From Eremomyces bilateralis CBS 781.70 (taxonomy: Eukaryota), in NCBI GenBank assembly GCA_010015585.1, contig ML975153.1: a DNA stretch of 64,000 nt. One strand, given 5' to 3'. Shown here in pieces: positions 17,348 through 46,442 of the stretch. A program made the translations under genes and the position numbers. A model generated the notes under the pieces. That model worked only from the letters and a program-made list of their open reading frames with translations. It was not told the origin of the DNA and made no database searches. Position 1 is the stretch's first letter. Every line of letters starts with the position of its first letter.

Positions 17348-17409
17348 CACGTGATTCTCGAAGTCACGTGGAGACATATTGCTCCTCTGTAGTACTAGCG
17401 CCAGCCAAT
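17348..17409. promoter_or_regulatory. Two CACGTG E-boxes plus a CCAAT box upstream of GCN20
   Basis: GTCACGTG cores at 17348-17353 and 17365-17370, CCAAT at 17405-17409, followed by an AT-rich TATA-like stretch at about 17430-17450. Confidence 0.5.
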
Positions 17410-28300: not shown

Positions 28301-29891
28301 CTCCCAAGTTCTGCTCCGGAGTGCTCAATGAGAAGAGTATCAAGCAGGCTTAGCTCGGCTACACAATGGAAGTGAGTACAATCCCCATCAGATAGTTAAG
28401 TTAAGGGTTACCAATTACCATATTAAAATTTTGGAGTGAGTTCATCTGGTAGATAGGATTTGCACTGTTGCAGTGGGACTGTGGGAGTGAAGGAATCATT
28501 CCTCCTTGTACGCTTTATAAGTTATAACCTCAGGGTTTATTTTACCAGGGGAAATATGGGTTCATGGGGTGATAGAAATATTGTTATATACTAAAACCGC
28601 CTATGATACCCTCTCATGGTAAATATTACTGATTCGTTCATAATTACAAGATCTATAGAATCAATGGAAAAATCCGTATTACACTAACAATAGTCAATGA
28701 CAAATTGATAATCCATTATCCATTAATATTATCTCGGCTGCCAATTGCTACGTATGGTCTATGACCCTCAATGACAAGCTCTGGGGGGAGGGGGGCTGAC
28801 GCCAAAGCTGTTGGAAACTTGGAAGCGATCGAGATCGAGTTTTCGTCCCGATTATGGTGATCCCATTTGACCATGTCCCGCCCCAATTCCCATGCTTGAT
28901 GCTTGTACAGCAGCCGACACTAGCGATGCAGCCTGGACCTTTCGAAAGCATGATGTCGCCCTGCTTTTTAGTTTGGCCTCTTCCCTTGGCTTCCGAGCAA
29001 TTGGAGGCCGTTTCGTTCCCTCGACTTCCGCTGCGCCCCATTTAATTCCAATCGTCGAACCCTGGATCTGCTGGGACGCTGGGACGCTGGGCCGAAAGGT
29101 ACAAACCCTTCGTCTCTCCCCCCACTCCTCCGACTCCCCTCCATCATCATTACCCTTCTATTGTCGACCCCTCGGACTTTCGCTCTTCATCCTGTCTGGA
29201 ATCCACAGTGATCTTGTTCACCCTTTGGTTCTTCCCCTCGTTCTACCCTCGTTTCCCCCATCCATTTTGTTCCATACCCGCGACCACTCTCAGCTGTAAC
29301 CAGTACATCACCACTCCCCCTCATCCCCCGGTTCACTAGAAGTATTATTCCCTTTCGACCCTCAAAACGTCCCCTCCACCTATTCCTACAGCCTTCGGGG
29401 TCCCATCGTGAGCTCATTCTTGCATGGAAACAAACGCTTCGATCGGGTCCAGCTCTCGAACTCGCGGGTCTCTCCACCGTCGACCCTCTCGTACCCCTTC
29501 AGCTTCAAAGTCTGCTGAACCACTGTGGAGACCAGATCGAGCTGGATCATCCCACTGATTTTGCAAGACCGTATCAATTGGGACATAAAGCATCCACTTG
29601 GCCAGGTCGAATTTTCTCACATCGATACATTTTCTTCTGGTCCATGAAGTCTAGGCACGAGACGTCGGCTTCCCGCTTCCCCTCCTCTTATTGCATATAT
29701 ACTCCCTTGCCTTCCCCAGTCACCATCGTGCAAGGTTGAATTTCCATTGAACAAATCCATGGTGAATCCACGGTGAAGATTCGAAACATAAGACCCTCCG
29801 AAGAGTCGAAAGAGCCTCCTACACCCAGGGACCTCCTTCGTCTTCCCCCCGTGCTTCCTCCCGCTACTTTCACCTTCGCTTTCCATTCATC

Positions 29892-31382
29892 ATGGATGGC
29901 CGAAATAGCGCAGGCCGCCGAATTTCGCTGTTGAACGACACCAATTCACCGCCGTCAGCCGCCACACGCGGTCCTCCCTCCCGCTCGGCTCTACACACTC
30001 TCAACAAGGTCACCCGCCCTCCCATCTCCAACTTCCTTTCCTGCCACAACTCGTCCATCGCATCCGTCACCACCAAACTCTCGGAGTGTCGCATCCCCTC
30101 GCTGCCCTCGCGTTCCCGCACCTGCAGCTTCTCCTCCTCCTCCGACACGCCGCAGCTCGTGCGCTGCGACTCGTCCGATTCGGCCGCGATGCAGTCCCCG
30201 TCGCCCATCACCCCCAATTCGAGCACCTTCGACGACCTTCAACCGCAGGATCCCGCCGGCATCGCGAACAACCTTCCTCTCTTCCCCACCAGCTCAAACC
30301 TCTACGGCGTACCGAAGGACGGGCAGTCGACGTATCCGCCGTTGAACGCGCAGCCGAGCCCGTACACATTCGGCTACCAACCATCACAACCTCCGGTGCA
30401 GCAAATGTACAAGACGGGATTATCGCCGCCGGACGCCAATGGCACCGTCGCGCAAATCGACGATTCCCTCCCCGACGATCCCATCATTTCTGCCGAAACA
30501 CCCCAATCCGACGTCGGCGCGACATCCCGGCGCAGCAGCGCCCAAAAGTCGAAGAAAAACACCTACCCATGCCCGCTCGCCAAACAATTCAATTGCAACG
30601 ACTACTTCACGACGTCCGGCCACGCGGCGCGCCACTCCAAGAAACACACGGGGAAGAAGGACGCCGTGTGCCCGCAATGCCACAAGGCGTTCACGCGCAA
30701 GGACAACATGGAGCAACACCGCCGCACGCACAAGGAGGGTCGCGGCTCAGTGGCCTCCGCGGCCAAGACGAGCCTCGCGCCCACCGATTCCGGCGTGAAG
30801 AAAGGCCGCCCGTCGACGACAGCCACGCGACGGAGCAAGGCCAACTCCCTCCTTGCAATCTCGCCGCCCGCTACACAATCTCTCCTCGGGACCGGCGCGT
30901 CTGGTTCTAGCTTTCCTCTGGGTTCGACCCTTCCTTCCGATCCGTCGCAGATGTCGTCTAGCTACCCCTACAACACGCCGCTCGATTCTGGGCTCCCGAT
31001 GCCTTCGCTTGGCGCCCCGCAGCCCTATCCCACCAACTTCCTCGGACGATTACCGTACACGGGTGTCTCTGGGGCGTCTGGGCAAGGATTGCCGCCGGTC
31101 AGGGCAGCGCCGGGGGTGACCTCCGGGCTCGAGACGCTGGCGATCGCCGCAGCGAGCGATGGCACGCTGGAACAACAGGCATTGCAAGCTTCAATGCAAG
31201 CTCCGTTGCAAGCTCCGTTGCAAAATCAATTGCAGGGTCAATTGCAGGGTCAATTGCAGGGTCAATTGCAGGGTCAATTGCAGGGTTCGTTTCCCAGCCA
31301 ATTGCAAGGCCAATTGCAGAATCAATTGCAACCTCCGTTGCAGAGCCAATTGCAAGGTCCAGTATCCGACCCATTGCAATAA
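29892..31382 (+). CDS. Two-finger C2H2 transcription factor, Nrg1-like
   Basis: 496-aa ORF with YPCPLAKQFNCNDYFTTSGHAARHSKKHTGKKDAVCPQCHKAFTRKDNMEQHRRTH. The FTTSGH.ARH and R.DN..QH.RTH residues resemble Nrg1/Nrg2. Also an LETLAIAA motif and a Q-rich tail. Confidence 0.88.
   Translation: MDGRNSAGRRISLLNDTNSPPSAATRGPPSRSALHTLNKVTRPPISNFLSCHNSSIASVTTKLSECRIPSLPSRSRTCSFSSSSDTPQLVRCDSSDSAAMQSPSPITPNSSTFDDLQPQDPAGIANNLPLFPTSSNLYGVPKDGQSTYPPLNAQPSPYTFGYQPSQPPVQQMYKTGLSPPDANGTVAQIDDSLPDDPIISAETPQSDVGATSRRSSAQKSKKNTYPCPLAKQFNCNDYFTTSGHAARHSKKHTGKKDAVCPQCHKAFTRKDNMEQHRRTHKEGRGSVASAAKTSLAPTDSGVKKGRPSTTATRRSKANSLLAISPPATQSLLGTGASGSSFPLGSTLPSDPSQMSSSYPYNTPLDSGLPMPSLGAPQPYPTNFLGRLPYTGVSGASGQGLPPVRAAPGVTSGLETLAIAAASDGTLEQQALQASMQAPLQAPLQNQLQGQLQGQLQGQLQGQLQGSFPSQLQGQLQNQLQPPLQSQLQGPVSDPLQ
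31182..31379 (+). repeat. Coding 12-bp minisatellite (CAATTGCAGGGT and variants) encoding (LQxQ/LQxP)n
   Basis: Perfect CAATTGCAGGGT units at about 31227-31285 flanked by diverged units (TTGCAAGCTCCG, TTGCAGAATCAA). Translates as LQGQLQGQLQGQ. Confidence 0.9.
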
Positions 31383-31575
31383 AATCCAATAAGCCTGGAC
31401 ACGAAATAGTCCGATTCTTCCTTCCGCTCGCGCCTCGCCGTCGCGGAAGGCTCTCGCATCCTACAAAATCCTTAGCGCGTATCGGCGGTGGAGACCCGAC
31501 AAACCGCGTCTCCCAACCGAACCATCTGAGGGTGAAAGACCCTGTATTCATACCGAAATCCACGAGTGCGGTGAC

Positions 31576-31731
31576 CTCATCGCTCAGCTCCCGGATTTTT
31601 CTCTCTTTTTGATCAACAATAGATCCAAGTCACGTGAGTGCCACGTGGTACACGTGAACATGCCGCATGTGCCACAGGCGGCGCTTTGGATTATCCAATC
31701 AGCGAAGTCGAATTTTGACTTCATCTCATCG
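31576..31731. promoter_or_regulatory. Orphan promoter-like cluster: PAC motifs, three E-boxes, CCAAT, RRPE-like AATTTT
   Basis: CTCATCGC at 31576-31583; CACGTG at 31631, 31642 and 31651; CCAAT at 31695; AATTTT at 31711; ATCTCATCG at 31723-31731. It lies between two convergent gene 3' ends. Confidence 0.55.
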
Positions 31732-32037
31732 TCGCCTTGACAGGTCTGTTGGTCCTTTCAGGACAGCGAGGAGGGGGCAATGAACCCTTCCGCCCTCTCC
31801 CTTTCTTCCACCCGACTGAAGCAGAAGGGCCGGTGGTCGACCTACGGACTTCGGGGTCCACGCCGCATGACATTGTTTGGAATCACCTATTTCGCATCAC
31901 CTCTCTTCGCACAGGGTTTCTCCGTCGGATTTTCGAAGAGATGGCGATTGTATGAGACCATGAAATAGACGGATTCGGCCGTCATGGCTCGCCTGATGAT
32001 CTGGGCGCGTGGGAGCGCGGACGGAGCGGTTTTTTTC
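31720..32037 (+). ncRNA. Candidate structured ncRNA (snoRNA-like), family not identified
   Basis: Lies downstream of the promoter-like cluster. Possible intron 31744-31824; hairpins at 31846-31859, 31902-31941 and 31958-31987; CTGATGA at 31993-31999; T7 run at 32030-32036; no convincing ORF. Confidence 0.3.
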
Positions 32038-32441
32038 CTTCCTGGATTTCTCGTTATCGTTTGGGGAAATGGGTGGCTCGGGGTGAGCCCGGAGCATACA
32101 TACGGGATGGACTTTAGGCGTTTACAGGTGGGGGGGGGGGACGGGATTGACAAGCAAAAGCGCCAATGTATCCATACATAGGTTGAGGGACGGGAATAAT
32201 GGGTGATTGGAGACGACATTGTTAGACGTGTTCATATCATAATCAAACGATTCCCTTGTAATTTGATCGTGCAATTTTCGCAGATGATTTGGTCGTTTAC
32301 CAAACCGACGTATATAGTGCAACTGATGCATGTTCGGATCAGTCCATTCCGGAAGTCATACCAATATCATACATTTGAGATAGAGCCATGTATCTGCTCA
32401 TAACGAGCGACTCGCTCAAAACGTCGCCACGTCAATCCTGA

Positions 32442-33447
32442 TCACACCTTCCGCTTCCGTTTCTTGAAAACCACTGCACCCTCTTCTGTCTTCCGCACAG
32501 TAGTCTCCTCCGCCTTGACAATCGTCTCCGCCCGCCCCTCAACATCCCTCCCATCCTTCGCAGCCACCGACTCCTTTTCCTCCTCCGCCTCGATCTGTCG
32601 GTCCACTTCCTCTTTCACCACCTTCTTCTCTCCCTCTCCCTCCTCCTCCACCTGCGTCCCCCCAACCGATCCCGCCAATAACGCCTCCAACTCTCTCCCC
32701 CCATCCACCCCCGACCCCCCAGGCCACCTCCTCAACGTGCTCCCCCAATTCTTTGTCCCCACCTTCCCCACCTCCTCCTCCTCATCCCCTCCTCTTTCCT
32801 CCACCTTCCGTTTCCTTCTCCGCTCCACCCCTCCACTCGACCTCTCCCCTTCCTCTCCTTCCCTCNNNNNNNNNNNNNNNNNNNNNNNNNNNNNNNNNNN
32901 NNNNNNNNNNNNNNNNNNNNNNNNNNNNNNNNNNNNNNNNNNNNNNNNNNNNNNNNNNNNNNNNNNNNNNNNNNNNNNNNNNNNNNNNNNNNNNNNNNNN
33001 CCACTCCCCCGCCATCGCCATCTCCCCCCGAAACTCCTCCGGCACTGCCACCCCCATCTCCGCCAACTGCGCCATCTGCCGCTTCCTCTCCTCCGTCGTC
33101 GCCTGCCGTGGCCTCTCCCTATCCCTCTCCGTTCGCCCAATCACTCCTTCCGCCTTCGAGCTAGACGGCGCCCCCCCGGAGACCAGGGCATCGAGCCGTG
33201 CGACCTCGGACTTGGCGCGGTCCTTCTCGCGCGCGTCGCGCTCATGCGTGCGGTGGAGGGATTTGAGGGAGCGTTGGATGCCGGATTGGTGGCGGCCGGT
33301 GGCTTCGTGGTTGCGCCGGGCGAAGGGGGTGTCGCGGACGTAGACGCTACAGAATTTGCACCAGTAGTTGGGCTGTAGGGAGGTTAGAGATCCTGGGTAG
33401 AGAGGGTTTGGAGGGGGACTTACGGTGGATTTCCAGTGTTCGGACAT
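32442..33447 (-). CDS. U1/matrin-type zinc-finger protein (WBP4/FBP21-like spliceosomal factor); spans an assembly gap
   Basis: MSEHWKST|intron|PNYWCKFCSVYVRDTPFARRNHEATGRHQSGIQRSL...QLAEMGVAVPEEFRGEMAMAGEW, with a C-terminal VVFKKRKRKV NLS-like end. Confidence 0.85.
32866..33000. other. Assembly gap (135 N)
   Basis: Run of N inside a very C-rich (+ strand) coding segment. Confidence 1.
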
Positions 33448-33815
33448 CGTGAGGTGGAGATGGGTAGTGGGGATAGGACGTGGGTTTGGTGAGGGAAATG
33501 TGGAAGGTATTGGAGATGGGAGGCAAGGAACGATGGTCTTCACTACACCAAGGAATTATGCGATGTCCTTCCTTTGCAGCATTTTGTGTATGAAAATCTC
33601 GTGTGATAAATAATAACCCCATTCTACGAAGATGCCGATGGATGATCATTATCAACTCATAATAGGTGACGCACGGGCCATTCGAAAATGTGTCGATATC
33701 ACAACTTCGTAACTCTTAACTTCAAATGCTTCCACGAGACCACGACACCTTAAGCTTCCATCAAATCTCCTCAGGTCCACCACTTCACCCTCCTTTCGCT
33801 CCCAATCTCTCCAAG

Positions 33816-35152
33816 ATGGCACCAGCTGCTCCCCGCGCGGCTGGCGTCGCCGTCCGCACCGCCCTCCAATCCCCCCGATCTCGCGCCCTCCCCTCCCTCC
33901 CCCGATCCCTTCCCGCCTCCCTCGCTCTCGCCCGATCCTTCACCCAACTCACCAACCAAAATGCTCCCGCCAACTCCTCGATCTTTGGGCTGCCCAGTGG
34001 CCCCGGCGGAAGCAGCGGTGGCGGCGCCCCGCCGGCGTCGTATTTCCAGAAACCGACGCTGCCGGCGAACACGATCGTGCGGTTCGTGCCGCAGCAGACA
34101 GCGTGGATCGTGGAGCGGATGGGGAAGTTCAACAAGATCTTGGAGCCCGGGTTGGCGATCTTGGTGCCGTTTTTGGATCGGATCGCGTACGTCAAGAGCT
34201 TGAAGGAGGCGGCGATTGAGATCCCGAGTCAGAGTGCGATCACGGCGGACAACGTGACATTGGAGTTGGATGGGGTGTTGTATACGCGGGTGTTCGACGC
34301 ATACAAAGCAAGGTAGATAATATACGGTGATATCCTTTTCGAAGACCGCCGAGCTAACATCCAACCAGTTACGGAGTCGAAGACGCCGAATACGCCATCT
34401 CCCAGCTCGCGCAAACCACCATGCGCAGCGAAATCGGCCAACTCACCCTCGACCACGTCCTCAAAGAGCGCGCTAACCTCAACGCCAACATCACCGCCGC
34501 CATCAACGAAGCCGCCCAGGACTGGGGCGTCGTGTGCCTCCGCTACGAGATCCGCGACATCCACGCGCCCGGCCCCGTCGTCGAGGCCATGCACCGCCAG
34601 GTGACCGCGGAGCGCAGCAAGCGCGCCGAGATCCTCGACTCCGAGGGCCAGCGGCAGAGCGCGATCAACATCGCCGAGGGCCGGAAGCAGAGCGTGATTC
34701 TCGCGTCGGAGGCCCTGCGGGCCGAGCAGATCAACCGCGCGAGCGGTGAGGCGGAGGCGATCCAGGTGCGGGCACGGGCGACGGCGGCGGGGATCGAGGC
34801 GGTGTCCGGGGCGATTCGGGACGGGGGGGAGGATGCGGGGAAGGCGATGGGGTTGAGCGTGGCGGAGAAGTATGTGGATGCGTGGGGGAAGCTGGCGAAG
34901 GAGGGGACGGCGGTAGTGGTGCCGGGCAATGTGGGAGATATGGGCGGGATGATTGCGAGCGCTATGGCCGTGTATGGGAAGATCAGCGACGGGCAGTCGA
35001 AGGGGGTGGCGGCGAGGTTGGTGGAGGGCGGCGAGAAGGAGACAGGGGCGGAACGGAGCGAGCAGAGACAGACGGAAGGTAACGCAGGTCAGAAGCGCGA
35101 AGTGGCACAGGATGTGTTGGATACGTTCGACGAGGCGACGCAGAACCGGTAG
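33816..35152 (+). CDS. Stomatin-like (SLP-2/SPFH, band 7) protein, probably mitochondrial; one intron at about 34312-34368
   Basis: Arg/Ala/Ser-rich presequence-like N-terminus; IVRFVPQQTAWIVERMGKFNKILEPGLAILVPFLDRIAYVKSLKE, AQTTMRSEIGQL, CLRYEIRDI, AERSKRAEILDSEGQRQSAINIAEG. Confidence 0.92.
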
Positions 35153-45314: not shown

Positions 45315-45488
45315 TGAGATGGTTTGACCACGGAGATCGCGATAACCACTTCCATTTATTGCAAAGCTAAAGAAGAAAAGCTATCTACTATGCGTGCGCG
45401 ATGTTCAAGACCTTGACAGTTGACCTAGTCACGTGACTATCATTCAGGTAACAGGCCACAGGCCTGGAACCATAACAAACCCGTCTGA
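45315..45488 (+). repeat. About 175-bp diverged direct repeat, copy A (contains the palindrome TAGTCACGTGACTA)
   Basis: Shares CATTTATTGCAAAGCTAAAGAA, CTATCTACTATGCGTGC, CCTAGTCACGTGACTAT and ACAGGCCACAGGCCT with 45756-45930. Confidence 0.85.
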
Positions 45489-45755
45489 TATGTCATGTGT
45501 ACAGTAGCTGAATAAGGTAATTCTGGCTAATTTTCCTTTAGTTTACGAAACCGACGGTATAAATTTACCAGTGTCGAGCATTAGAATTCTCCTTCTTATA
45601 TAATATGGTACCATTCAGTTGGCTCTACGCCTCTAATTACCAGAGAGACTGGTTTTCAAATTTTCGTTAGCTCCAAGGGTGTCTGACATGGATTGGGCTG
45701 TGGTACTTCCCGTCCGCATCTTATGCCTGATGCCTCCCCCACAGATAATCAACCG

Positions 45756-45930
45756 TGAGATGGTTCGACTGCAAAGGTTGCAAGAACCGACTTTCATTTA
45801 TTGCAAAGCTAAAGAACATGAACTATCTACTATGCGTGCACGATGTTCATGAGGTTGACAGCTTACCTAGTCACGTGACTATATCTTCAGGGGACAGGCC
45901 ACAGGCCTTGAGCCATTACAGCCCATCGAT
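45756..45930 (+). repeat. About 175-bp diverged direct repeat, copy B
   Basis: Colinear with 45315-45488; palindrome at 45868-45881. Confidence 0.85.
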
Positions 45931-46442
45931 CAATTAATTCCATCCTTCAACACCATACATCGTCCTGACGCCTTTCTGCTATGTCAGCATCAGCAGTATT
46001 ATTATCTTCCAGATGAGACTATTTACTTGTTCCGACTCCAGGGTCCTTCCTGTTTGCGCTTTCGCCTGTGTCCAGTAAGACGGGTTGCCAAATCAGGTAT
46101 AAACCGTAGGATTGGCCTATATCATTTCATAAGGGGTCTAAAACAAGGCCTTAGGGTGTTCACTGTGTTTGTTGACTGTTCAGAGTGAATCAGTGTAATA
46201 ATCATGATGAAGACGGTGGATTGGTGGACACGCAGACCGCAGCTTGAGTCGGATGTTGGCATGAGTCATGCATGTCCATCCTTTTTATGTTTCTGACTCA
46301 GTCGCAAAGATTTTTGGCATCGGACATCTTCAACTGACAGCGGAAACCTTTGCTACACACTGAGACTATCCGAACGCAAGCGACCAATTTAAACCTCCTA
46401 ATAATAAGAAACCTCTGGTTGTGTGTACCAATCAGATCCGAA

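What the first reader, a model, noticed from the sequence alone, without database searches (positions are those of the whole stretch)
31576..32037. Orphan ribosome-biogenesis-type promoter and hairpin-rich segment between convergent genes: candidate unannotated ncRNA
Seen: between the stops of the C2H2 gene (31382, +) and the U1-ZnF gene (32442, -), where no promoter is needed, there are two PAC-like motifs (CTCATCGC 31576, ATCTCATCG 31723), three CACGTG boxes 9-11 bp apart (31631, 31642, 31651), CCAAT and AATTTT. These are followed by a possible intron (GTCTGT 31744...CTGAAGCAG 31824) and three stems: GGAC/GTCC around TTCG, TCTCTTCG/CGAAGAGA, and CCAT..GACGG/CCGTC-ATGG around TTCG. An ANANNA (31955), CTGATGA (31993) and a T7 run follow. 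Established: PAC/RRPE mark ribosome-biogenesis genes, and fungal snoRNAs often come from short spliced non-coding transcripts. Inference: an independently transcribed snoRNA-like RNA or a micro-ORF gene. I could not match it to U1-U6, U3, U14, RNase P/MRP or SRP by eye.
Basis: partly seen in the sequence, partly recalled or inferred. Interest (0 to 1): 0.7.

Follow-up and report, generated by a model that had tools for sequence, protein, structure and literature searches.

The report
Conserved 3' UTR element, fungal repressor
This does not look like a separate small RNA gene. It is most likely the long tail of the messenger RNA for a fungal repressor protein, and it holds a 25-letter element kept across many related fungi that probably controls that messenger.

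Summary
There is no Rfam match, box C/D and H/ACA layouts are not met, and 31735-32035 folds no better than shuffles (z +0.75). The proposed intron stays unspliced in a probable RNA run, whose contig joins the C2H2 coding end to 32128.

ATAGACG-loop-GCCGTCAnGGCT (31965-31989) recurs on the coding strand 71-237 nt after the stop codon in 29 of 80 orthologous loci of this Nrg1/CSP-1-like repressor, across Dothideomycete lineages. Seventeen more loci carry variants. A model built without the window ranks this site first in 64 kb (E about 8e-6), though the motif was first spotted through the window's own sequence.

Best reading: a small 3'-UTR cis-element, probably a protein-bound hairpin (GACG/CGUC) that tunes the repressor's mRNA. 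Covariation support is weak and the binding factor is unknown.

The triple CACGTG cluster exceeds chance (1 of 600 shuffles) but is not conserved. A species-specific internal or antisense promoter is not excluded. I found no description of the element in Rfam or in the papers searched.

The parts
29892..31382 (+). C2H2 zinc-finger gene, 496 aa, Nrg1/CSP-1-like repressor; no close paralogue in the genome; C-terminal (LQGQ)n extension
   Evidence: the Nrg1/CSP-1 label rests on one database name (P0066) and on recall of the finger signature
31383..32128 (+). Inferred long 3' UTR of the C2H2 mRNA; 3' end at 32128 or beyond (the contig stops just before a G run)
   Evidence: one contig 31257-32128, unspliced; run X1 is RNA by guess and by two spliced introns; strand not shown
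31965..31989 (+).
31631..31656 (.). Three CACGTG boxes, the first in a Cbf1-type GTCACGTG context; species-specific
31695..31699 (+). CCAAT box beside the CACGTG cluster
   Evidence: a similar CACGTG pair + CCAAT sits at 17348, upstream of a gene
31576..31583 (-). PAC-like site 1 (GCGATGAG on -), with GAAAAAT about 12 nt upstream on -
31723..31731 (-). PAC-like site 2 (CGATGAGAT on -); overlaps the inverted partial copy
31726..31755 (-). Inverted, shortened look-alike of the conserved element (ACAGAC-CT-GTCAAGGCGACGA); in the sense RNA it can pair with the element
   Evidence: 16.4 bits, E about 0.006; half-motif in 32 of 5000 shuffles; noticed after the fact
31780..31968 (+). 62-codon ORF, judged spurious
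32030..32036 (+). T7 run after GCGG; sits where some relatives have GGCGTT plus a T run; not shown to be a terminator
32442..33447 (-).

Best explanation
The segment is the long 3' UTR of an Nrg1/CSP-1-like repressor mRNA. Its conserved part is a roughly 25-nt cis-element: A(U)A-GACG, a loop of variable length, CGUC, then A-n-GGCUACGA. SHOWN: the element is conserved, lies on the coding strand after the stop codon of this one gene, and is unique in this genome in its full form. INFERRED: it acts as RNA. A marginal 4-bp hairpin (GACG/CGUC), possibly a tiny pseudoknot with GCC/GGC, presents conserved bases to an RNA-binding protein that sets the half-life or translation of the repressor mRNA. 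I favour faster decay, because such repressors must be switched off quickly (recalled, not tested). The CACGTG/PAC cluster lies in a lineage-specific expansion of the UTR and is not part of the conserved element.
For: Conservation: 29 of 80 loci with an orthologue score at E<0.01 with model R1, every one on the + strand after the stop. 21 of the 29 built the model and the other 8 are near-duplicates of them. Distance is 71-237 nt, median 149, against 584 nt in the window. Eight more loci have degenerate copies and 9 Cladosporium-like loci have a longer hairpin with the same GACG/CGUY core and a GCUACG tail. Held-out score of the window: matrix 30.1 bits against a next best of 14.9; model 24.7 bits, E 7.6e-6, best in 64 kb. 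Spread: both main branches of the protein tree and the basal rows. RNA-level hints: loop length varies from 5 to 9 nt in 23 well-matching rows, awkward for a fixed-spacing DNA site; the four inner pairs hold in 98.8% of cells, with one change on both sides (C-G to U-A, L052) and one G-U; L066 has GACC/GGUC. Neighbouring words are strand-biased: ATACCC 63 forward against 7 reverse and GGCGTT 46 against 5, in 76 loci. One probable-RNA contig joins the coding end to the element. N. crassa csp-1 has alternative polyadenylation in its 3' UTR (PMC9848017, passages).
Against: Covariation is not significant: 224 of 500 shuffles reach the score for the hairpin plus UA/AU pairs, 41 of 500 for the pseudoknot, 11 of 500 for the version with an outer stem; these were three tries on related sequences. 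In local context the inner stem has probability of 0.2 or less in 16 of 22 sequences. L013 and L015 break inner pairs. 27 of 80 loci with 400 nt or more after the stop show no copy, and 7 are too short to tell. The motif was first found through a 12-mer of the window, so the held-out test is not fully independent. Contigs show neither strand nor a single transcript, and DNA may be in run X1: one contig also spans the divergent promoter at about 33450-33800. The inverted look-alike at 31726-31755 would suit a DNA site. No binding protein or function was tested.
Confidence: 0.62

Rival explanations
1. The conserved element is a DNA site: a composite transcription-factor or 3'-end/termination element downstream of the repressor gene.
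For: Conservation is mostly in primary sequence. The structure is weak. An inverted shortened copy lies 210 nt upstream.
Against: The spacer between the halves varies; changes in the core mostly keep the pairing. The full and loose patterns are below the control count genome-wide (18 against 45; 54 against 92), so there is no sign of a regulon. I could not match it to a known fungal factor's site (recall only).
Confidence: 0.15
2. The CACGTG/CCAAT/PAC cluster is a working promoter inside the UTR. It makes an antisense RNA into the repressor gene, or a short sense RNA that carries the element. This can be true together with the best explanation.
For: Cluster in 1 of 600 shuffled windows. Same architecture as the upstream region at 17348 and as the U3 and MRP promoters. 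Both PAC-like sites read GATGAG on the minus strand, whereas U3's reads on its coding strand, which hints at antisense direction. In Candida albicans Brg1 lowers NRG1 mRNA stability through an antisense transcript (10.1101/2021.01.20.427417, one passage citing another paper).
Against: Not conserved: among 76 orthologous 3' regions 7 have one CACGTG and none has more than one. No full RRPE. No start or strand data.
Confidence: 0.13
3. An independent snoRNA-like RNA of about 31740-32035, perhaps a U13/snR45-like guide pairing with the 18S 3' end.
For: Promoter-like cluster, a CT-rich tract at 31784-31813 like those before U3 and MRP, and a final T run. Short matches to the 18S 3' end by recall. 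Rfam searches found no snR30, snR45 or RNase P RNA in this genome, so such genes are unaccounted for.
Against: No Rfam hit. The only UGAUGA is near the 3' end, with no CUGA after it up to 32140; no ACA follows the last hairpin until 32098. No excess folding. ACCTACGGA and CCTTCCGC occur in 0 of 76 orthologous 3' regions, and about 2 such 9-mer matches are expected by chance for 300 nt against 1.8 kb. No likeness by eye to the N. crassa snoRNAs listed in the two supplements. Caveat: a snoRNA need not stay next to this gene, and no close relative of this fungus was available.
Confidence: 0.07
4. A micro-ORF gene (62 codons, 31780-31968).
For: An open frame follows the promoter-like cluster.
Against: No Pfam match, no homologue among 5.8 billion proteins of 34-109 aa, and only one chance-level tblastn hit (E 0.38) in 80 loci.
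Confidence: 0.03

Closest known systems
Conserved fungal 3'-UTR structures of Gao, Jones and Rivas 2021 (PMC8216456: thioredoxin, RING-finger gene, thioesterase, GLY1, MET13)
   Same: Single-copy, gene-tied, lineage-wide element in a 3' UTR with unknown binding factor.
   Different: Those are 48-170 nt with 4-16 significantly covarying pairs. This one is about 25 nt, conserved mainly in sequence, with no significant covariation. Its gene is not in their table of 17, and 'NRG1' has 0 occurrences in the text (passages and table).
rps0 and rps20 3'-UTR motifs of Li and Breaker 2017 (PMC5640933)
   Same: Small conserved hairpin motifs in fungal 3' UTRs, proposed as protein-binding sites.
   Different: They belong to ribosomal-protein genes. 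None of the motif classes named in what I read concerns a C2H2 repressor (parts 1-2 of 8 and passages; alignments not read).
Candida albicans NRG1 mRNA control by a Brg1-induced antisense RNA
   Same: Post-transcriptional control of the mRNA of the same repressor family.
   Different: That is an antisense transcript, not a conserved UTR element. Seen only as a cited statement. No antisense RNA is shown here.
Box C/D and H/ACA snoRNAs, U3, snR30, snR45
   Same: Promoter-type motifs nearby; isolated box-like words.
   Different: Box order and spacing are not met. U3 and MRP are encoded elsewhere in the genome.

Membership tests
Box C/D snoRNA | Box C (RUGAUGA) near the 5' end and box D (CUGA) near the 3' end | tested here: not met
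   In 31700-32140 the only TGATGA is at 31994; CTGA occurs at 31816 and 31993 only
Box H/ACA snoRNA | Hairpin-H box-hairpin-ACA three bases from the 3' end | tested here: not met
   ANANNA at 31955 follows a hairpin, but the next hairpin is 30 nt and the next ACA is at 32098
U3 snoRNA | Boxes A, B, C, C', D; match to the Fungi_U3 model | tested here: not met
   No hit here; the true U3 is at G000:C1, 150 bits
RNase MRP RNA | Match to RF00030 | tested here: not met
   No hit here; the true gene is at G000:C15
Nuclear RNase P RNA | Match to RF00009 | tested here: inconclusive
   No hit here at E<=10, but the genome search rang nowhere, controls included
snR30/U17 | m1 and m2 motifs in the 3' hairpin followed by ACA | tested here: not met
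   An m2-like AGACCAT is present, but no m1 and no ACA, compared by eye with Nc ACA12; RF01271 has no hit in the genome
snR45/U13 acetylation guides | C/D boxes plus two guides pairing with 18S helix 45 | tested here: inconclusive
   Boxes not met; RF01266 has no hit here. Pairing could not be computed because no rDNA was found in the assembly
Any Rfam 15 family | Score at or above the gathering cut-off | tested here: not met
   0 hits in the window, in 12 long loci, and at E<=1 in 13 shorter loci
Conserved 3'-UTR cis-element | Conserved on the coding strand after the stop codon of orthologous genes | tested here: met
   29 of 80 loci plus the window
Conserved 3'-UTR cis-element | Lies inside the mature mRNA, before the poly(A) site | tested here: inconclusive
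   One contig joins it to the coding end; strand and 3' end unknown. No poly(A) tails at the ends of 29 short loci
Conserved 3'-UTR cis-element | Structure supported by covariation | tested here: inconclusive
   One or two pairs with a change on both sides; not above shuffles with confidence
Conserved 3'-UTR cis-element | Changes mRNA stability, translation or location | not testable with these tools
   Needs a reporter assay
Nrg1/CSP-1 repressors | Orthology to N. crassa CSP-1 (NCU02713) or yeast Nrg1 | tested here: inconclusive
   Two C2H2 fingers; one homologue is named 'transcriptional regulator nrg1'; no close paralogue in the genome. No reference sequence was available for a direct comparison

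The most novel reading that the evidence does not exclude
The element is a minimal RNA switch: GAC pairs with the loop of a GCC/GGC hairpin to form a tiny pseudoknot, and it gates the decay of a master repressor's mRNA across a fungal class. In this species a promoter inside the UTR and an inverted copy add a second layer: an antisense or decoy RNA, or a fold that hides the element.
Probability: 0.1. Interest if true: 0.75.

Novelty: new member of a known kind. Interest (0 to 1): 0.45.

Why it matters
CSP-1/Nrg1 repressors govern development, clock compensation and azole response in fungi (PMC4726075 and PMC9848017, passages). How their mRNA is controlled in filamentous fungi is not described in the papers I found. 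A 25-nt element kept across Dothideomycete lineages gives a precise target for a deletion reporter and for pulling down its binding protein. It is a modest, testable lead, not a new RNA class.

Tried and rejected
Rfam scans of the window and region gave nothing real; no tRNA. Genome searches for RNase P, snR30, snR45 and 5.8S were blank or noise. No second copy of 31383-32060 in the genome. blastn and nhmmer of the whole intergenic stretch against the 80 loci gave one weak hit (E 0.42, L024, upstream of the gene; rejected as chance); the element was found only by shared 12-mers. None of the 80 loci had the zinc-finger neighbour or the stomatin gene. A type II hammerhead was considered by eye, since GAAA, a stem, GUC and CUGAUGA occur in that order; stems I and II do not form and relatives lack CUGAUGA beside the element. 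HDV-like and U3-like readings failed by eye. An outer UAG/CUA stem is broken in 8 of 21 rows at one pair. The run search listed no holder on record as RNA; its one run, X1, is a guess. The hole in cover at 32129-32341 is not used as evidence. Earlier scan findings: nothing relevant. Literature searches for the motif words, the finger peptide and GGCGTT found nothing relevant. The maximum-likelihood tree did not finish; FastTree was used on 95 rows: 67 loci, the window and 27 named proteins, leaving out 13 loci with short or identical proteins. The pair-table script stopped after 25 of 35 rows. The supplement of the fungal snoRNAome paper (PMC5824354) could not be read; its Pezizomycotina families may bear on the snoRNA rival.

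Full report
Setting. The window lies on contig C5 of a 26.9-Mb fungal assembly. The named relatives of the upstream C2H2 protein are almost all Dothideomycetes. The finding sits between the stop of that gene (31382, +) and the stop of a convergent gene (32442, -).

Observation. The three CACGTG boxes exceed chance: 1 of 600 shuffled windows has three within 30 nt. Two PAC-like 7-mers are marginal (535 of 20000), and there is no full RRPE in the window. The proposed RNA is not unusually structured: z +0.75. The proposed intron has a non-consensus donor and is not removed in run X1. That run splices introns at 33372-33424 and 34310-34367, and carries one contig from 31257, inside the C2H2 coding end, to 32128. 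X1 is only guessed to be RNA, and contigs give no strand, start or end.

Known RNAs. Rfam gives no match in the window and only noise in 31000-32800 at E<=10. U3 and RNase MRP are elsewhere in the genome. Searches for RNase P, snR30 and snR45 in the genome were blank or noise. Box C/D and H/ACA layouts fail. I saw no likeness by eye to the N. crassa snoRNAs in PMC2780460 (passages and supplements 1 and 2 read). No rDNA was found in the assembly, so the 18S pairing rests on recall; the 9-mer is absent from 76 of 76 orthologous 3' regions.

Comparative test. No related genomes are held. I fetched 80 metagenome loci, the best of 162 that encode a relative of the zinc-finger domain. None holds the two downstream neighbours, and alignment searches with the intergenic stretch found one chance hit. 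Shared 12-mers then showed GCCGTCATGGCT after the stop codon in 14 loci. It belongs to a longer motif: ATAGACG, 3-7 variable bases, GCCGTCA, one base, GGCTACGA.

How firm the conservation is. A covariance model from 21 loci, without the window, finds 29 of 80 loci at E<0.01, all on the coding strand after the stop. 21 of these built the model and 8 are close kin of them. The element starts 71-237 nt after the stop. In the window it starts at 584 nt, scores 24.7 bits (E 7.6e-6) and is the best site in 64 kb; a weight matrix gives 30.1 bits against 14.9 for the next site. The motif was first seen through the window's own 12-mer, so this test is not fully independent. Of the other 51 loci, 8 have degenerate copies, 9 Cladosporium-like loci have a longer hairpin with the same core and tail, 27 have no copy in 400 nt or more, and 7 are too short. 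Full copies occur in Pleosporales-like, Lepidopterella-like, Saxophila- and Baudoinia-like rows and in basal rows; the window's own place in the tree is unsure (FastTree). In the window's genome only this site fits both the core and the tail pattern, and both patterns are rarer than their reversed controls. The element therefore looks tied to this gene.

Structure. RNAalifold predicts one 4-bp hairpin, GACG/CGUC. It holds in 98.8% of cells, with one change on both sides and one G-U; L066 adds GACC/GGUC and L024 and L025 add G-U pairs. GCC can also pair with GGC, which would allow a 3+3-bp pseudoknot (97.6% of cells paired); L057, L059 and L060 lack the GGC. None of this is significant: 224, 41 and 11 of 500 shuffles reach the covariation score for the three structures tried. 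Alone, the inner stem has probability of 0.2 or less in 16 of 22 sequences. The element is a conserved sequence on a weak scaffold, which points to a protein partner.

Mechanism. Shown: conservation, position, strand and single-gene link. Inferred: it acts in the mRNA, because loop length is free, core changes mostly keep pairing, and its neighbours GGCGTT and ATACCC are strongly strand-biased, with GGCGTT or GGCGTC 29-48 nt after the element's start in 21 of 29 loci. Further inferred: an RNA-binding protein uses it to tune the half-life or translation of a repressor mRNA; I put this reading at about 0.6. The gene is called Nrg1/CSP-1-like from one database name and from recall. CSP-1 is a global repressor orthologous to Nrg1 (PMC4726075, passages), and its 3' UTR shows alternative polyadenylation (PMC9848017, passages).

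The promoter-like cluster. It is non-random and resembles the region at 17348, but no orthologous 3' region has more than one CACGTG. It lies in the roughly 400 nt by which this UTR exceeds its relatives. Its GATGAG sites face the minus strand, so an antisense RNA is possible, as reported for Candida NRG1 (10.1101/2021.01.20.427417, one passage). An inverted partial copy of the element overlaps the second PAC-like site. Both remain unexplained.

Novelty. The element matches no Rfam family. It is not among the 17 structures of PMC8216456 (table and passages), nor among the motif classes I saw in PMC5640933 (parts 1-2 of 8 and passages). Searches for its words found nothing relevant in the 25 of 216 papers listed. 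The library lacks most subscription papers, and the snoRNAome supplement was unreadable (passages seen). PMC1636426 and PMC10512220 were seen as passages only and added nothing.

Verdict. Not an orphan snoRNA. Most likely a long 3' UTR with an apparently undescribed, class-wide 25-nt cis-element of a developmental repressor. Interest 0.45.

Noticed in passing
L007-L086, first 800 nt after the C2H2 stop: ATACCC (often ACATGGATACCC or CATATACCC) occurs forward in 63 of 76 loci against 7 reverse, and GGCGTT in 46 against 5; probably general 3'-UTR or 3'-end signals of these fungi. The window's UTR lacks ATACCC within 800 nt.
   Followed up: partly
L018-L025, L027, L031, about 175-200 nt after the stop: Cladosporium-like loci have a stable long hairpin GCAUG..GACG-GGAGGG-CGUC..CAUGC-UACG with pair-keeping changes; likely a remodelled form of the element.
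   Followed up: partly
window 31726-31755 (-): Inverted, shortened copy of the element, resembling the variant in L066; could pair with the element in the sense RNA.
   Followed up: partly
window 31190-31380 (+): 12-bp tandem repeats encode an (LQGQ)n tail of about 70 residues that the homologues lack.
   Followed up: no
window 29087-29891 (+): The RNA contig suggests a 5' leader of about 800 nt for the C2H2 gene.
   Followed up: no
window 31470-31629 (+): Best-folding part of the intergenic stretch (z -2.5 to -2.7 in 100-nt windows), including a hairpin closed by GAAA(G); not conserved in the loci.
   Followed up: partly
window about 45370-45500 and 45810-45940: Two similar segments about 440 nt apart, each with a perfect GTCACGTGAC.
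   Followed up: no
L002 (G000:C1) and L003 (G000:C15): U3 snoRNA gene with a 5' intron and an RRPE+GATGAG promoter; RNase MRP RNA of about 467 nt with a CACGTG promoter.
   Followed up: partly
G000, whole genome: No nuclear RNase P RNA or snR30 was found with the Rfam models; these essential genes remain to be located.
   Followed up: no
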